From Candidatus Methylomirabilia bacterium (GTDB lineage Bacteria; Methylomirabilota; Methylomirabilia; Rokubacteriales; CSP1-6), in NCBI GenBank assembly GCA_041497895.1, contig JBGQHJ010000002.1, positions 21,112 to 85,111 of the forward strand: a DNA stretch of 64,000 nucleotides, in the 5' to 3' direction. Position 1 is the stretch's first letter, and each line of letters opens with the position of its first letter. Under the pieces are notes generated by a model, which saw only the letters and a list, made by a program, of their open reading frames with translations, ran no database searches and had not been told where the DNA came from. A program made the translations under genes and the position numbers. Shown in pieces: positions 1,255-33,618 of the stretch.

Positions 1255-3424
1255 CCGCCGCAGCCGGGTCCCCGGCCGCGCGCAGCGCCCGCAGCAGGGC
1301 CTCCCCGCGCTCGGCGGGAATGCCGAGCAGCAGCCCGCCCGACGTCTGCGGATCGAAGAGCAGGTCGAGGGCGGGGCGGCGCGCCACCGCTTCGCCCACC
1401 CACATCGCGCGCCGGGCCTTGGCGTTCTCGGGATGGGCGGTGCTGCGGACGCCGCGGCCGAGCAGCGAGAGCGCGCCGGGCAGCGCGGGCAGCGCGTCGA
1501 GGTCGAGCACGGCTGAGACCTTGCTCGCGCGCAGCATCGATCCGAGGTGGCCGGCCAGGCCGAAGCCGGTCACGTCGGTGGCCGCCGAGGGGCGCAGGGG
1601 CCCGGCCGCCCGCGCGGCGGGGCCGTTGGAGCGGAGCATCGAGGCGCAGGCGGCCTCGATCCACTCGCCGCGCGCCATGCCGCGCATGTCGGCCTGCAGG
1701 AGCACGCCGGTGCCGAGCGGCTTGGTGAGCACGAGCTGGTCGCCCGGAGCGAGCCCGCCGAGGCGGATCAGCGCGTCCGGGGAGCCGACGAGCCCCCAGA
1801 CCGCGAAGCCCACCACCAGCTCGGGCCCGGTCGTGGTGTGGCCGCCCACCAGGGTGACCGCGTCCGCATCCAGGCCGGCGCGAGCGCCGGCCATGACCTG
1901 GTACAGAGTCTCCTCGGCCCTCGCCGGCTCGTCGTCGGGCACGGTGACCTGGGCCAGGGCAAAGCGCGGCGCCACGCCCTTGGCCCAGAGATCGCTGATC
2001 GCGTTGACCGCGGCCACGCGCCCGACCAGGTAGGGGTCGTCGGCGAAGGCGCGGAAGCTGTCGACGGTGGCGACCACGATCTCGCCGCGATCCGTCTCGA
2101 CCGCAGCCGCGTCGTCGGGCTGGGCCAGGCCCAGGATCACCGCCGGATGGCTCGTGGGCCCGAGGCGCTCGAGCGCGCGGGTCAGCGCGGACTCGCCCAC
2201 CTTGGCCGCGCAGCCGCCGCACAGCATGTCGCCTCCGGGCATCGGGGACGCGGCGAAGTCGGGGGCCACCGCGTCATCGGGCCCGAGAACCTGGAAGCGG
2301 CGGACGAATCTCCGGTCGATCCAATCTTTGAGAGAAAAGAGTGCGGCTCCTTCGGCCGCCACGCCCCACTTGGTGCCGATGGCGCGCCCGTCGCCCAGGT
2401 TGAGCAGCGAGAGGAAATCGCGCTGCGGGCGATACGCCGAGAGCCGCCCGCCGCGCGCGCGGGCCATCAGGTTGCGGGCGAGCACCGGGCCCTGGCGAAC
2501 CGCGTAGACCCCGGCCTTGGCGAGGGCCGGCCCGGCCGTCCACGCCGCGCAGTCGCCCACCGCGAAGACGTCGTCGCGGTCCCGGCACTGGAGCGTGGGG
2601 CGGATCCGGGCGAATCCCCACGCGTCGGTCTCGAGGCCCGATCCGACGAAGAGCGGCAGCGCCGCGGCGCCCGCCACCCACACGGTGGCGTCGGCCGCGA
2701 TGCGCTCGCCCCCCGCGAGATGCACCGCGTGGGCCTCGACGCGGGCGACGGTGGCGTCACAGCGGATCGTCACCGCGCGCGCGGCGGCCGCGGTCTCGAC
2801 CCGGCGGGCCGCGCTCGCCGCGTAACCCGGCAGGACGCGCGGGCCCGACTCCAGCAGGAGCACGTCGACGCGCCGGCCGGGCTCGGACCCGAGCCGCGCC
2901 GCGAGCGCGAACGCGACCTCCACGCCGCCCGCGCCCGCGCCGACCACCACCACCCGGAAGGCCTCCCGTCCCCGCGCGGCGGCCAGCACCTCGTCCACCC
3001 GGCGGACGAACTCGCCGATGGGGCGGGTGGGCATCGCGTGCTCGCGCGCACCGGGGATCTCGAGGCCCGCGACGGTCGAGCCCACGTCGAAGGACACGGT
3101 GTCGTAGGTGATCGGTGGACGGTCGGCGAGCAGGAGCCGGCGCGCGTCCGGGTCGACGCCGGTCGCCGCCGCGACGATGCAGCGCGCTCCGGCGCGCAGG
3201 GCCAGCGGCCGCACGTCGATCTCGAGGCCTTCCCGCGAATACTGCCCGGCCACGAAGCCCGGCACCATGCCGGAGTAGACCGCGATCGGCCGATCCACCA
3301 CGAGGGTGAGGCGCGCGCCGGGCACCGGGGCCATGGCCCAGCGCTTGAGCACCTGGATGTGGGCGTGGCCGCCGCCCACCAGGACCACGTCGTGCCGGAT
3401 GCCAGGAGCGGACGGCGAGCGCAT
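1190..3424 (-). CDS. selD: Selenide,water dikinase fused to an N-terminal FAD/NAD-dependent oxidoreductase domain
   Basis: N-terminal VVLVGGGHAH and VVVGAGAGG Rossmann motifs; SelD motifs CGGCAAKV, DDAA, GGHT, LTKPLGTG, DVTGFGLAGH, DPQTSGGLL; active-site residue is Cys (TGC). Confidence 0.92.
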   Translation of the reverse strand: MRSPSAPGIRHDVVLVGGGHAHIQVLKRWAMAPVPGARLTLVVDRPIAVYSGMVPGFVAGQYSREGLEIDVRPLALRAGARCIVAAATGVDPDARRLLLADRPPITYDTVSFDVGSTVAGLEIPGAREHAMPTRPIGEFVRRVDEVLAAARGREAFRVVVVGAGAGGVEVAFALAARLGSEPGRRVDVLLLESGPRVLPGYAASAARRVETAAAARAVTIRCDATVARVEAHAVHLAGGERIAADATVWVAGAAALPLFVGSGLETDAWGFARIRPTLQCRDRDDVFAVGDCAAWTAGPALAKAGVYAVRQGPVLARNLMARARGGRLSAYRPQRDFLSLLNLGDGRAIGTKWGVAAEGAALFSLKDWIDRRFVRRFQVLGPDDAVAPDFAASPMPGGDMLCGGCAAKVGESALTRALERLGPTSHPAVILGLAQPDDAAAVETDRGEIVVATVDSFRAFADDPYLVGRVAAVNAISDLWAKGVAPRFALAQVTVPDDEPARAEETLYQVMAGARAGLDADAVTLVGGHTTTGPELVVGFAVWGLVGSPDALIRLGGLAPGDQLVLTKPLGTGVLLQADMRGMARGEWIEAACASMLRSNGPAARAAGPLRPSAATDVTGFGLAGHLGSMLRASKVSAVLDLDALPALPGALSLLGRGVRSTAHPENAKARRAMWVGEAVARRPALDLLFDPQTSGGLLLGIPAERGEALLRALRAAGDPAAAVIGVVAASRADGALIEVAAKG

Positions 3425-30993: not shown

Positions 30994-31563
30994 ATGCCCC
31001 GCCTGCTCGCGGTGGTCGGGGCGGTGACCCCGCCGGGAAGGCTCGACGCGGCGGTGCGCTTCGCGGCCGACTGCGCGGGCGCGCTGCCCGATGTCTCGGC
31101 CACCGTGCTGAGCCTGGGAGCCCACCGCATCTCCTTCGCCGACGGGCGCCCGCTCGAGGGCTACGCCGACGACACCGCGCGGATCGTGAGCGCGGTCGCG
31201 GCGGCGGACGCGGTGCTGCTCGCGAGCCCGGTCTACCGCGCGTCGTTCACCGGCGCGCTGAAGAATCTGCTCGACCTCACCCCGCTGCCCGCGCTCCGCG
31301 GCAAGCCGGTGGGGATCGTGGCCATGGGAGCGACCTCGCACCACTACCTGGGAGTGGACTGGCAGCTGCGGGCCGTGCTCGCCTGGTTCGGGGCGCTGGT
31401 GGTGCCCACCAGCGTCTATCTGGAGTCCGGGCACTTCCAGGACGGGCGGCTCGCCGATGCCGGCGCGGCCGCCGCGCTGACCGACCTGGTTCGGGCCCTC
31501 GTCGCGATGACGGGCCACGCCCGGGAGCAGGCGGGGCCGCCGCCATTGGCGGCCGGGCGCTAG
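30994..31563 (+). CDS. NADPH-dependent FMN reductase (SsuE/MsuE-like)
   Basis: ASPVYRASFTGALKNLLD, GKPV, HYL; follows the LLM gene. Confidence 0.88.
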   Translation: MPRLLAVVGAVTPPGRLDAAVRFAADCAGALPDVSATVLSLGAHRISFADGRPLEGYADDTARIVSAVAAADAVLLASPVYRASFTGALKNLLDLTPLPALRGKPVGIVAMGATSHHYLGVDWQLRAVLAWFGALVVPTSVYLESGHFQDGRLADAGAAAALTDLVRALVAMTGHAREQAGPPPLAAGR

Positions 31564-31581
31564 CCGGCCGCGCGGCCGGCT
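31562..31581. terminator. GC-rich palindrome between convergent genes (possible bidirectional terminator)
   Basis: AGCCGGCCGCGCGGCCGGCT perfect palindrome; no U-tract. Confidence 0.35.
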
Positions 31582-31591
31582 GAGACAGGGG

Positions 31592-32146
31592 TTAGCGCGG
31601 GGGTGCGGTGACGAAGGCGCGCAGCATGTCCCGCGCGGCCGGACCGCTCCAGTCCTTGGCCCCGACGATGCGGCCGACGAGCCGGCCCTCGCGATCCACG
31701 AGGTACGCGGTGGGCGGACCCCACACCCCGTACTGGCGCCCGGTGACGTCGCCGCTGGCGTCCAGAAGCACGGTCGCCACGTAGCCGCGCTCGCTGACGG
31801 TGCGCTTCACCAGGTCGGCGCTCTCACGGAAACTGATCAGCACGACCGCGAGCCCCTGCTCCTTCATCTCCTGGTATAGCCGATTGACGGAAGGTAACTC
31901 CTCCCGGCAATCCGGTCACCAGGTGGCCCAGAAGAAGACCAGGAGCGCCTTGCCCCGGTAATCCTCCAGCCGCACGGTGCGGCCGTCGAGCGCGGGCAGC
32001 GCGAAGGCGGGGGCGGGCTTGGGCGACTCGTAGACCTGCACTCCCATCTTCTCCCAGGCCGCCGGCGCGGCGGCGGGCTGCGCCGCCGCGACCGTGGCCC
32101 AGAGCGCCGCCGCGATCGTGCTGCCCGCGGCGATTCGCGCGATCAT
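31592..32146 (-). CDS. Secreted TlpA/ResA-like thioredoxin-fold protein, probable selenoprotein (UxxC)
   Basis: ORFs 31916-32146 and 31592-31867 are one frame: ...FFWATW-TGA(31916-31918)-PDCREELPSVNRLY...WGPPTAYLVDREG; TGA replaces the first Cys of CxxC; signal peptide. Confidence 0.85.
31880..31915 (-). promoter_or_regulatory. SECIS-like hairpin directly 3' of the UGA
   Basis: CCG-GATTG-C-CGGGAGG-[AGTTA]-CCTTCCG-T-CAATC-GG; uses codons rare in this window (TTA, CCT, AAT). Confidence 0.65.
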
Positions 32147-32691
32147 CAGACGCCGGACTCCTTCAGCGCCTTGAGCACCTCCGCGGGATCCAGCAGGTCG
32201 AGCGGGTTGGCCTCGACCTTGATCCAGCGGACGACGCCGTTCTTGTCGATCACGTAGTACGCGCGCTTGGCGTAGCGGTAGATCGGGCTCTTGTCGTCGG
32301 TGACCAGCGCGTCATAGGCCGGAAGCATCGATCGGCGGAAATCGGAGAGGAGGAGGTAGTGGATGCTGTTCTGCTTGCCCCAGGCTTCCAGTGTTGCGAT
32401 ATGGTCGGCACTCACGCCCACGACCTGGGCGCCCGCAGCCTCGAACTGGGGCATGGCCCCCTCGAAGCTGAGCAGTTCCTTGGTTCAGGTGCCGGTGAAC
32501 GCCTGGATGAAGGTGAAGATCACGACGGGGCCCTTGGCGGTCAGGTCGGACAGCTTGACCTGCTTGCCGCCGGGAGCCGCCAGGGTGAAGTCGGGCGCTT
32601 TCTGGCCGACTTCCAGGGCGGCGACCGGGGAGGCCAGGGCCAGACTGGTCAGCAGCAGCGCTGTGACCAGCGGCAGGGTAACTCGGCGCAT
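32146..32691 (-). CDS. Secreted peroxiredoxin-like (AhpC/TSA) protein, probable selenoprotein
   Basis: MRRVTLPLV...LEVGQKAPDFTL...FIQAFTGT-TGA(32485-32487)-TKELLSF..., in frame with ORF 32146-32454; TGA sits at the peroxidatic Cys (TxxC) position. Confidence 0.82.
32443..32478 (-). promoter_or_regulatory. SECIS-like hairpin 6 nt after the UGA
   Basis: GAACTG...CAGTTC basal stem with an internal GCTTC/GGGGC stem. Confidence 0.45.
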
Positions 32692-32778
32692 GGCAATCTC
32701 CTTTCCGGAGTGTGGGGTGACGCTGTCAGAACCCCCGGCAGGCTCCCGAAGTTTCCGGGCCGCGCGCATAATGCGCCC

Positions 32779-33618
32779 ATGCGCACCGTGCCGGGGCCCG
32801 AGGCCTTCGCCGCCGCCGGGGTCGCCTGGAGAATACACCGGGAGCGGGTGCTTCTCGCCGGATGGGGTCGGGCCATCCTGCTCCAGCTCGCCCACCCTCT
32901 GGTCGCGCGGGGCGTGGCCGAGCACAGCGTCTTCACCACCGAGCCCTGGGGCTGGGCGCGGCGTCTCCACCGCACGCTCGGGGCCATGCTCGCGCTGACC
33001 TTCGGGCCCGACGAGGCCGCGGCGGCGGCGGCCGCCCGGATCAACGCGATCCACGATCGCGTCCACGGCCGCCTCGACCGGGCCGCGGGCGGCGAGCCCG
33101 CCGGCGCCCCGTACAGCGCCCACGATCCGGAGCTGCTCGCGTGGGTGCACGCCACGCTGCTGGACTCCTTCCTGGGGGCCTACCGGCTCTTCGTCGGGCC
33201 GCTCGCCATCGCCGACGCGGACCACTACTGCGCCGAGGCGAGCGCGATCGAGGCCCGACTGCGCATCCCGGCCGGCCGCCTCCCGCGCACGGAGGCCGCG
33301 CTGCGCGACTACGTGGAGGCCATGCTGGCCGGCGACACCCTCGAGGTGACCGACACCGCGCGCGCGCTCGCGCGCGAGGTGCTCGCGCCCCCGGTTCCGT
33401 ATCTGCTGCGGCCGGCCCTGCGGCTCGCCGCGCTGCCCGCGGTCGGGCTGTTGCCCCCGGCCATCCGGGCCGGCTACGGCCTGCCGTGGGACGCCCGCCA
33501 CGCGCGGGCGCTGGCGGTCGTGGCCGCGGTCAGCCGCCGGGGCCTGCCCCTCGTGCCCCCGTCGCTCCGCTTCTGGGCGGCGGCGCGCCGCGCGATCCGC
33601 CCGCGGTGCCCTCGATGA
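32779..33618 (+). CDS. DUF2236 / MpaB-like oxygenase family protein
   Basis: [46 protein letters not shown]. Confidence 0.85.

What the first reader, a model, noticed from the sequence alone, without database searches (positions are those of the whole stretch)
31592..32691. Two-gene exported selenoprotein redox relay
Seen: both TGA-containing redoxins are adjacent, translationally coupled (TGATG overlap at 32144-32148) and carry signal peptides. Two independent nonsense mutations both at catalytic Cys codons are implausible. Inference: a periplasmic Sec-peroxidase and Sec-reductase pair, a system standard annotation would miss as four fragments.
Basis: inference. Interest (0 to 1): 0.8.

Follow-up and report, generated by a model that had tools for sequence, protein, structure and literature searches.

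The report
Exported selenocysteine peroxiredoxin–TlpA gene pair
Two overlapping genes encode a secreted peroxiredoxin-like protein and a secreted thioredoxin-like partner that both use selenocysteine at the active site. The pair looks like a selenium version of a known cell-envelope peroxide-removal relay and is routinely annotated as four gene fragments.

Summary
On the minus strand, a 181-aa peroxiredoxin-like gene (32691-32146) overlaps by TGATG a 184-aa TlpA/ResA-like gene (32146-31592). Each carries one in-frame TGA, at the peroxidatic-Cys position (TxxU) and at the first Cys of WCxxC (UxxC). Both are genuine selenoprotein genes. The genome has tRNA-Sec, selA, selB and selD. The TGAs are kept in every listed ortholog row of the phylum search but one. 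Cys homologues exist. Each TGA is followed by a hairpin with compensatory changes. Both proteins have signal-peptide-like N-termini. A TlpA gene lies directly downstream in 115 of 150 listed peroxiredoxin rows, while other neighbours vary. The peroxiredoxin has no second Cys, so it needs an outside reductant. The best reading is a selenium analogue of the Caulobacter TlpA-to-PprX envelope peroxide relay. That function is inferred, not shown: the canonical Pro is absent and the Thr is variable, 15 of 127 genomes have the genes unlinked, and no DsbD/CcdA gene lies beside the pair. Both protein kinds are known selenoprotein families. This scan has already reported the same pair in at least seven other genomes, with the same reading. 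The find is solid and moderately interesting.

The parts
32146..32691 (-). Gene 1: exported peroxiredoxin-like selenoprotein, 181 aa, motif T66-x-x-U69, no Cys anywhere; stop TGA 32148-32146
32617..32691 (-). Predicted signal peptide of gene 1 (MRRVTLPLVTALLLTSLALASPVAA, then LEVGQKAPDF at the start of the domain)
   Evidence: 25 of 25 orthologs with complete N-termini have K/R in the first 8 residues and a 12-aa hydrophobic window of KD 1.6 or more. No SignalP was run.
32485..32487 (-). UGA = selenocysteine 69, aligned with the peroxidatic Cys of solved BCP-type peroxiredoxins
32430..32474 (-). SECIS-like hairpin of gene 1; the covarying stem is 32437-32469
   Evidence: 95% of cells paired, 3 of 7 pairs with changes on both sides, 0 of 500 shuffles reach the covariation score
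32698..32703 (-). AAGGAG ribosome-binding site, 6 nt before the ATG of gene 1
   Evidence: read directly from the sequence
32144..32148 (-). TGATG: stop of gene 1 overlaps the start of gene 2; an AAGGAG lies 11 nt upstream inside the end of gene 1
31592..32146 (-). Gene 2: exported TlpA/ResA-like thioredoxin-fold selenoprotein, 184 aa, motif W-U77-P-D-C80; stop TAA 31594-31592
32081..32146 (-). Predicted signal peptide or signal anchor of gene 2 (MIARIAAGSTIAAALWATVAAA, then QP...)
   Evidence: 25 of 25 orthologs and homologues show the same n-region and h-region features
31916..31918 (-). UGA = selenocysteine 77, at the N-terminal (nucleophilic) position of the CxxC motif
31880..31915 (-). 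SECIS-like hairpin of gene 2; core stem-loop 31889-31905, GGGAGG-AGUUA-CCUUCC, starting 10 nt after the UGA
   Evidence: 100% of cells paired, 3 of 6 pairs with changes on both sides, 1 of 500 shuffles as high

Best explanation
This is a two-gene operon for an extracytoplasmic selenium-based redox pair. Both mRNAs recode one UGA as selenocysteine through a SelB-dependent hairpin just downstream. Both products are exported by N-terminal signal sequences. Gene 1 is a one-Sec peroxiredoxin of the BCP/PrxQ lineage. Its selenolate (U69) is oxidised by a peroxide to a selenenic acid. Because it has no second Cys or Sec, it must be recycled by an outside partner. Gene 2 is a TlpA/ResA-like thioredoxin-fold protein (U77-x-x-C80) and is that partner. 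U77 attacks the oxidised peroxiredoxin, C80 resolves the mixed bond, and TlpA is left as a selenenylsulfide. A CcdA/DsbD-type membrane electron carrier, drawing on cytoplasmic thioredoxin, then re-reduces TlpA. Shown here: Sec coding, export-type N-termini, and conserved pairing. Inferred: peroxidase activity, electron transfer between the two proteins, the chemistry of the mixed bond, and the upstream donor.
For: Sec decoding. The genome has tRNA-Sec at 71.3 bits, selA at 565.7 bits and selB at 359.9 bits on one contig, plus two selD genes, one of them with its own TGA. selB is found in 218 of 251 genomes of the phylum. TGA conservation. Both TGAs are kept in 18 of 18 related loci, in 150 of 150 listed peroxiredoxin rows and in 149 of 150 listed TlpA rows, down to about 55% protein identity and with conserved protein sequence on both sides. 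Cys at the same column is seen in homologues P0010, P0013, P0029 and P0057, in P0123-P0137, and at DNA level in G247 and in L107-L183. Hairpins. Both downstream hairpins covary. Fold. The Sec of gene 1 aligns with the peroxidatic Cys of 2ywn and 2cx3 (E about 1e-23). Gene 2 aligns with 3kcm, ResA and TlpA 1jfu. E72 and R143 are invariant, and no ortholog has a second Cys. Export. Signal-peptide features are present in 25 of 25 and 25 of 25 sequences. Pairing. TlpA lies immediately downstream of 115 of 150 listed peroxiredoxin rows, and 112 of 127 genomes that list both have an adjacent pair. The other neighbours differ from locus to locus. None of more than 70 distant Cys-type TlpA loci has a peroxiredoxin neighbour. 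Precedent. In Caulobacter, ScsB -> TlpA -> PprX reduces peroxide in the envelope, and PprX is a BCP/PrxQ-type peroxiredoxin with a signal sequence (passages of PMC3322552). Possible donor. One CcdA-type gene lies next to a Cys-type TlpA paralog elsewhere in the genome. RNA. Contigs from two RNA-library studies bridge both TGAs and the gene junction. This is weak evidence, because DNA can be present in such libraries.
Against: The PxxxTxxC signature is incomplete. Ile stands where the Pro should be, and the position 3 residues before Sec is T, A, N or S among orthologs. No curated NCBIfam model is reached: PrxU scores 33 against a cut-off of 270, BCP 52 against 140, ResA 93.5 against 170, and TlpA 75.5 against 230. 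15 of 127 genomes keep both genes but unlinked, 10 of them in one genus. Seven solo peroxiredoxin loci that I checked have no TlpA-like gene within about 2 kb. No DsbD/CcdA gene lies beside the pair in the 16 loci scanned, and no DsbD N-terminal domain was found in this 86.8%-complete genome. No SignalP was run, and no activity, selenium content or protein contact was measured.
Confidence: 0.58

Rival explanations
1. Both are real, exported selenoproteins and real partners, but the peroxiredoxin-like protein is not a peroxidase. On this reading the pair is a selenol/thiol-disulfide exchange module for maturing or repairing envelope proteins. Possible tasks are cytochrome c or copper-centre assembly (as for ResA, CcmG and TlpA) or reduction of sulfenylated or oxidised proteins.
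For: The canonical Pro is absent and the Thr is variable. Pfam AhpC-TSA also scores the TlpA-like gene highly, so it does not separate peroxidases from reductases. Cho et al. describe a peroxiredoxin-like ScsB substrate, PrxL, apart from the peroxidase PprX. I saw only that PrxL depends on ScsB and that a FOX assay was used 'to detect any' PrxL activity (passages), not the result. TlpA-family proteins are known for cytochrome oxidase maturation (passages).
Against: The best solved matches of gene 1 are BCP-type peroxiredoxins at E about 1e-23, against ResA at about 5e-7. It has a single redox residue in TxxU register rather than CxxC. The peroxiredoxin Glu and Arg are invariant.
Confidence: 0.2
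2. Both are real selenoproteins, but they only share an operon. Each works with other partners and no electrons pass between them.
For: The genes are unlinked in 15 of 127 genomes. Solo copies have other small neighbours. Several further TGA-bearing redoxin paralogs exist in the genome.
Against: The pair is the only conserved unit across loci whose other neighbours differ. The Cys-free peroxiredoxin needs an outside reductant. Two loci keep a decayed peroxiredoxin remnant upstream of TlpA, which suggests that the pair arrangement is ancestral.
Confidence: 0.12
3. The TGAs are true stops: pseudogenes, split genes or sequencing errors.
For: By table 11 the region reads as four fragments, and databases hold such fragments.
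Against: The same codon is TGA in all but one of 300 listed ortholog rows, with protein conservation on both sides. The downstream hairpins covary. The full Sec machinery is present.
Confidence: 0.01

Closest known systems
ScsB -> TlpA -> PprX cell-envelope peroxide-reduction pathway of Caulobacter crescentus (Cho et al. 2012, PMC3322552; passages read)
   Same: An exported BCP/PrxQ-type peroxiredoxin is recycled by an exported TlpA-type thioredoxin-fold protein, which a DsbD-family membrane protein keeps reduced.
   Different: There both proteins use Cys, PprX has the full PxxxTxxC motif and a resolving Cys, and the paper gives the two genes distant locus numbers (CC1673, CC2210). Here both catalytic residues are Sec, the peroxiredoxin has no second Cys and no canonical Pro, and the genes overlap in one operon. 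Only a CcdA-type donor was found, elsewhere in the genome, and ScsB itself was not searched for.
Sec-containing peroxiredoxin family (Prx, PF00578, TxxU), listed in the Sargasso Sea selenoproteome (PMC1088965, passages) and the 2026 review (PMC13188914, passages). That PrxU of Eubacterium acidaminophilum is the studied example is my recollection.
   Same: AhpC/TSA fold with Sec at the peroxidatic position; T-x-x-U in the window protein.
   Different: It is not an NCBIfam PrxU equivalog (33 bits against a cut-off of 270). It carries a signal peptide, is of the one-Sec type, and its Thr is not conserved among orthologs.
'Prx-like thiol:disulfide oxidoreductase' and 'thiol:disulfide interchange' selenoprotein families with UxxC (PMC1088965 and PMC13188914, passages)
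   Same: PF00578/thioredoxin-like fold with U-x-x-C, as in gene 2.
   Different: I did not compare gene 2 directly with those families' reference sequences. NCBIfam's ResA-like WAxxUGC family is not matched (51.8 bits against 300). Here the motif is W-U-P-D-C, and the gene is tied to a Sec-peroxiredoxin.
Known selenoprotein operons named in the 2026 review: grdA-grdB, prdB-prdC, frhA-frhD-hdrA, Prx with SelW-like, Prx-like with AhpD-like, SAO and Tso (passages)
   Same: Two selenoprotein genes co-located and presumed to act in one redox process.
   Different: A Prx(TxxU) plus TlpA-like(UxxC) exported pair is not among those named in the passages I read.

Membership tests
Bacterial selenoprotein gene (SelB/SECIS-dependent UGA recoding) | In-frame UGA conserved among orthologs at a catalytic position | tested here: met
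   18 of 18 loci, both genes; 150 of 150 listed rows; 149 of 150 listed rows
Bacterial selenoprotein gene (SelB/SECIS-dependent UGA recoding) | Homologues with Cys at the same column | tested here: met
   database proteins; TlpA type at DNA level. For the peroxiredoxin the Cys forms were seen only as database proteins.
Bacterial selenoprotein gene (SelB/SECIS-dependent UGA recoding) | Stem-loop just downstream of the UGA, supported by covariation | tested here: met
   No Rfam family matched.
Bacterial selenoprotein gene (SelB/SECIS-dependent UGA recoding) | tRNA-Sec, SelA, SelB and SelD in the genome | tested here: met
   The genome is a bin that is 86.8% complete with 7.2% contamination, and the machinery lies on other contigs, but selB is found in 218 of 251 genomes of the phylum.
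Bacterial selenoprotein gene (SelB/SECIS-dependent UGA recoding) | Selenium in the protein | not testable with these tools
   needs mass spectrometry or 75Se labelling
Peroxiredoxin (AhpC/TSA, BCP/PrxQ lineage) | Family HMM above cut-off, with the catalytic residue aligned to the peroxidatic Cys | tested here: met
   107 bits against a cut-off of 26; 2ywn and 2cx3 alignments
Peroxiredoxin (AhpC/TSA, BCP/PrxQ lineage) | Pro of PxxxTxxC | tested here: not met
   Ile62 (Ile, Leu or Val in orthologs) stands at that place
Peroxiredoxin (AhpC/TSA, BCP/PrxQ lineage) | Thr three residues before the catalytic residue | tested here: inconclusive
   T66 in the window protein; A, N or S in several ortholog groups
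Peroxiredoxin (AhpC/TSA, BCP/PrxQ lineage) | Conserved distal Arg | tested here: met
   R143 is invariant in 39 sequences
Peroxiredoxin (AhpC/TSA, BCP/PrxQ lineage) | Peroxidase activity | not testable with these tools
   needs an enzyme assay
NCBIfam PrxU (NF040737) and BCP (NF006960) equivalogs | Score over the curated cut-off | tested here: not met
   33.3 against 270, and 52.3 against 140
TlpA/ResA-type thiol-disulfide oxidoreductase | Thioredoxin-like fold with a W-C-x-x-C type motif | tested here: met
   W76-U77-P-D-C80, with W73, T75, U77 and C80 invariant
TlpA/ResA-type thiol-disulfide oxidoreductase | Curated NCBIfam cut-off (ResA NF002854, TlpA NF047696) | tested here: not met
   93.5 against 170, and 75.5 against 230
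TlpA/ResA-type thiol-disulfide oxidoreductase | N-terminal export signal or membrane anchor | tested here: met
   (simple charge and hydrophobicity criteria only; no SignalP or TMHMM)
Envelope TlpA -> peroxiredoxin relay (Caulobacter type) | DsbD/ScsB/CcdA-type membrane electron donor present | tested here: inconclusive
   One DsbD_TM (CcdA-type) match, next to a Cys-type TlpA paralog. No DsbD_N match. None beside the pair. ScsB was not searched for.
Envelope TlpA -> peroxiredoxin relay (Caulobacter type) | Electron transfer from TlpA to the peroxiredoxin | not testable with these tools
   The complex prediction was not accepted for read-through proteins, and biochemistry is needed.

The most novel reading that the evidence does not exclude
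The pair is a dedicated selenium-to-selenium relay in the cell envelope. The selenenic acid of the Cys-free peroxiredoxin is resolved by the Sec of its TlpA partner through an intermolecular diselenide. This would give a peroxide-scavenging system that resists irreversible over-oxidation in a compartment without repair enzymes. It is kept across much of a soil phylum (Methylomirabilota/Rokubacteria), and no protein-protein redox relay using Sec on both sides appears in the papers I searched.
Probability: 0.3. Interest if true: 0.7.

Novelty: new variant of a known kind. Interest (0 to 1): 0.45.

Why it matters
If the reading holds, a widespread soil and sediment phylum protects its cell envelope with a peroxide-reduction pathway built from two selenoproteins in series. 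That would extend the one characterised envelope peroxiredoxin pathway (Caulobacter TlpA-PprX) to selenium chemistry. It would also offer a natural system for asking why Sec is kept over Cys, for example through resistance to over-oxidation outside the cytoplasm or faster exchange. In practice, databases hold hundreds of these genes as 101-109 aa 'redoxin' fragments, or as read-throughs with Trp at the site. Selenoproteome counts and envelope redox inventories for this phylum are therefore understated.

Tried and rejected
I dropped the step, ran no structure prediction on these proteins, and so have no docking or model evidence either way.

The Rfam scan of 31400-32900 gave only four chance-level hits with E above 1.

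The promoter and terminator scan gave no promoter-like site and two terminator-like hits inside the coding region of gene 2, which I disregard.

I looked for a DsbD/CcdA gene beside the pair. Pfam on 64 flanking ORFs of 16 of the 18 related loci found none, and the neighbours differ from locus to locus. L022 and L033 were left out of that call. No DsbD_N match was found in the genome, which is 86.8% complete, so this does not show absence.

The metagenome scan with the Cys-form TlpA P0123 was meant to find Cys/Cys pairs. Only four loci had a peroxiredoxin upstream. Wherever the catalytic codon lay within the match it was TGA: the TlpA site in L104-L106 and the peroxiredoxin site in L104 and L170. 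The rest were distant Cys-type TlpA genes with no peroxiredoxin neighbour. So I could not see the genomic context of the close Cys forms.

Literature searches for this pair found no description of it: selenoprotein + Rokubacteria, selenocysteine + Methylomirabilota, selenocysteine + TlpA + peroxiredoxin + operon, and selenoprotein + signal peptide + periplasmic. The groundwater MAG study cited by the 2026 review (Deng et al.) is not in the library, and it or its supplements may list these genes.

For RNA runs, four metatranscriptome runs were laid as contigs. They cover the whole stretch, including the flanking genes, so they neither rank expression nor prove a single transcript.

The small ORFs next to unlinked copies in one genus have no Pfam match and were not pursued.

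Full report
WHAT IS THERE

Positions 31592-32691 hold two genes on the minus strand.

Gene 1 runs from ATG 32691 to stop TGA 32148-32146 and encodes 181 aa when the single internal TGA at 32487-32485 is read through. Gene 2 runs from ATG 32146 to TAA 31594-31592 and encodes 184 aa, with one internal TGA at 31918-31916.

An AAGGAG lies 6 nt before the ATG of gene 1. Another lies 11 nt before the ATG of gene 2, inside the end of gene 1.

The operon stands alone. Upstream is a divergent MpaB-family oxygenase gene on the other strand, and downstream a convergent FMN-reductase gene.

By table 11 the region reads as four ORF pieces.

WHAT THE PROTEINS ARE

Both proteins match Pfam AhpC-TSA and Redoxin far above cut-off. 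Gene 2 also matches Thioredoxin_8, Thioredoxin and Thioredoxin_2.

Against solved structures, gene 1 is closest to archaeal BCP-type peroxiredoxins (2ywn, 2cx3, 3hjp; E about 1e-23 to 1e-22). Its TGA codon aligns exactly with their peroxidatic Cys: AFTGT-U-TKEL against AFTQV-C-TKEM.

Gene 2 is closest to 3kcm, ResA and Bradyrhizobium TlpA. Its TGA sits at the first Cys of WCxxC.

Neither protein reaches a curated NCBIfam cut-off, including the selenoprotein models PrxU, WAxxUGC and SelL-related.

THE TGAS ARE SELENOCYSTEINE CODONS

Machinery. The window's genome is a bin, 86.8% complete with 7.2% contamination. It carries tRNA-Sec, selA and selB side by side on one contig. It also has two selD genes: one has its own in-frame TGA, and the other lies in this window at about 1313-2221. 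selB is found in 218 of 251 genomes of the phylum, and in 97 of 104 of the high-quality ones.

Database homologues. The large protein database holds the closest homologues mostly as 101-109 aa C-terminal fragments. Some are full-length JGI calls with Trp at the site and again at the true TGA stop, which I read as calls under a TGA=Trp code. A few are full-length proteins with Cys at that column, at 48-61% identity.

Related loci. In 18 loci from species-representative genomes labelled Methylomirabilota or Rokubacteria, both genes are present in the same order, and both have TGA at the same codon in all 18. Two of the loci carry frameshifts.

Phylum search. Across 251 genomes, the peroxiredoxin is found in 157 (E up to 1e-25), and all 150 listed rows have one TGA. 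The TlpA-like gene is found in 174 (E up to 1e-35), and 149 of 150 listed rows have the TGA.

Protein sequence is conserved on both sides of the TGA down to about 55% identity. These tallies include three to five genomes flagged as unpublished (G216, G076, G217, G044, G034). Leaving them out changes each count by at most that number.

HAIRPINS

Each TGA is followed by a stem-loop.

In gene 2, a 6-7 bp stem with loop AGUUR starts 10 nt after the UGA. All cells pair, 3 of 6 pairs show changes on both sides, and 1 of 500 shuffles reaches the observed covariation. One of these double changes goes with an amino-acid change.

In gene 1, a longer stem has 95% of cells paired, 3 of 7 pairs with double changes, and 0 of 500 shuffles as high. 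The inner part of this hairpin differs between ortholog groups.

The two hairpins share no obvious consensus, and their apical loops lie at different distances from the UGA. I recall, from no call, that both distances fall in the range reported for bacterial SECIS elements. The true TGA stop of gene 1 has no such hairpin (z-score +1.5).

EXPORT

Gene 1 begins MRR, then about 17 hydrophobic residues, then PVAA. The conserved domain start LEVGQKAPDF follows directly.

Gene 2 begins MIAR, then about 18 hydrophobic or small residues ending AAA-QP.

In 25 of 25 orthologs of each protein with complete N-termini, the pre-domain segment has K/R in the first eight residues and a 12-residue hydrophobic window. 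It has no acidic residue there except in one database entry with a long, doubtful extension. Its sequence and length vary.

This is the pattern of Sec-type signal peptides. For TlpA-type proteins an uncleaved anchor is equally possible. SignalP was not available.

THE PAIR AS A UNIT

Of 150 listed peroxiredoxin rows, 115 have the TlpA-like gene immediately downstream on the same strand. Of 127 genomes that list both genes, 112 have at least one adjacent pair, or 109 of 124 without the three unpublished genomes.

The other neighbours differ from locus to locus in 64 flanking ORFs of 16 of the 18 loci. They include GNAT and FMN-reductase genes, a cellulase, gas-vesicle genes, ABC transporters and an AAA/HTH regulator.

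Fifteen genomes have both genes unlinked, ten of them in one genus. In seven such peroxiredoxin loci no TlpA-like gene lies within about 2 kb.

Two loci keep a decayed peroxiredoxin C-terminus just upstream of a TlpA gene. One of them is a Cys-type (CSPC) paralog. This suggests that the pair arrangement is ancestral.

None of more than 70 distant Cys-type TlpA loci from metagenomes has a peroxiredoxin neighbour.

HOW IT MOST LIKELY WORKS

No ortholog of gene 1 has any Cys besides the Sec position. E72 and R143, the peroxiredoxin Glu and Arg, are invariant. The protein is therefore of the one-Sec type and must be recycled by an outside thiol or selenol. The co-transcribed, co-exported U-x-x-C protein is the obvious candidate.

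The closest characterised system is Caulobacter ScsB -> TlpA -> PprX. There an exported BCP/PrxQ peroxiredoxin is reduced by exported TlpA, which a DsbD-family protein keeps reduced (passages read).

In this genome I found one CcdA-type gene, next to a Cys-type TlpA paralog, and no DsbD N-terminal domain.

WHAT SPEAKS AGAINST A SIMPLE PEROXIDASE READING

- Ile replaces the Pro of PxxxTxxC.
- The residue three before Sec is T, A, N or S among orthologs.
- Pfam AhpC-TSA does not separate peroxidases from TlpA-type reductases, since gene 2 also scores 92 bits.
- The genes are unlinked in a minority of genomes.

I therefore rate the claims separately: Sec coding about 0.95, export about 0.85, partnership about 0.7, and peroxide reduction about 0.55.

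TRANSCRIPTION

Contigs from four metatranscriptome runs of three studies, 90-99% alike, cover the whole stretch. One contig of 651 nt spans 32063-32713, which takes in the TGA of gene 1 and the junction. One of 418 nt spans 31849-32263, which takes in the TGA of gene 2 and the junction. Such libraries can hold DNA, and contigs do not prove one transcript, so this is only a weak hint.

KNOWN OR NEW

Sec-peroxiredoxins (TxxU) and Prx-like or thiol:disulfide proteins (UxxC) have been listed as selenoprotein families since 2004-2005 (passages).

The 2026 review names several selenoprotein operons. It also notes a Methylomirabilota bin predicted to hold 63 selenoprotein genes (passages). The underlying study is not in the library.

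My searches found no description of this exported Prx-TlpA pair.

This scan itself has reported the same pair in at least seven other genomes, with the same reading. I reached my reading before opening those notes, and I tested their main claims here. One note reports a Sec-peroxiredoxin paired with a CxxC TlpA, which I did not test.

VERDICT

The finding is real. It is a new variant of a known kind, with moderate interest.

Noticed in passing
window 1313-2221 (-), = G000:C2:22424-23332: A second selD-like gene (277.5 bits, no internal stop) lies in the same window, about 30 kb from the pair. The better-scoring selD on another contig has its own in-frame TGA.
   Followed up: no
G000 contigs C5:26896-27342, C34:1900-2334, C10:9943-10299, C23:366-710, C16:9600-9953, C184:5654-6097: Six further redoxin-fold paralogs in the same genome each contain one in-frame TGA, so the bin is rich in candidate thiol-type selenoproteins.
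   Followed up: no
L092:2539-2949, L093:2633-3043, L091:1648-2037 (genus where the pair is unlinked): The solo peroxiredoxin genes are followed by an ORF of about 137 aa with a lipoprotein-like N-terminus (…SAAC…) and no Pfam match. Two of the copies are 62% identical and a third is partly alike.
   Followed up: partly
L098:2764-3168, L099:1555-1965, L102:1547-1957: The solo TlpA-like Sec genes in the same genus sit beside a molybdopterin oxidoreductase gene. They are followed by a conserved ORF of about 137 aa, rich in charged residues, with no Pfam match.
   Followed up: partly
L103:13323-13921 (G247:C110) and L101:1813-2516 (G079:C113): A short remnant of the peroxiredoxin C-terminus survives just upstream of a TlpA gene. 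In G247 that TlpA is a Cys-type (CSPC) paralog 11 kb from the intact Sec pair.
   Followed up: partly
database protein P0135 (131 aa): One predicted protein joins the C-terminal part of a TlpA-like gene to the N-terminal part of a second one that ends at FFWATW. This suggests tandem TlpA-like Sec genes in some genome.
   Followed up: no
database proteins P0004-P0009, P0012, P0014, P0017, P0127: Full-length JGI gene calls carry Trp at the Sec site. Among the peroxiredoxin calls, several also carry Trp at the true TGA stop, followed by a spurious extension. This looks like contigs called under a TGA=Trp code.
   Followed up: partly
window 31562-31581: A perfect 20-nt GC-rich palindrome (AGCCGGCCGCGCGGCCGGCT) lies between the convergent stops of gene 2 and the FMN-reductase gene. 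It may be a two-way terminator without a T-run. RNA-library contigs of related strains break or differ here.
   Followed up: no
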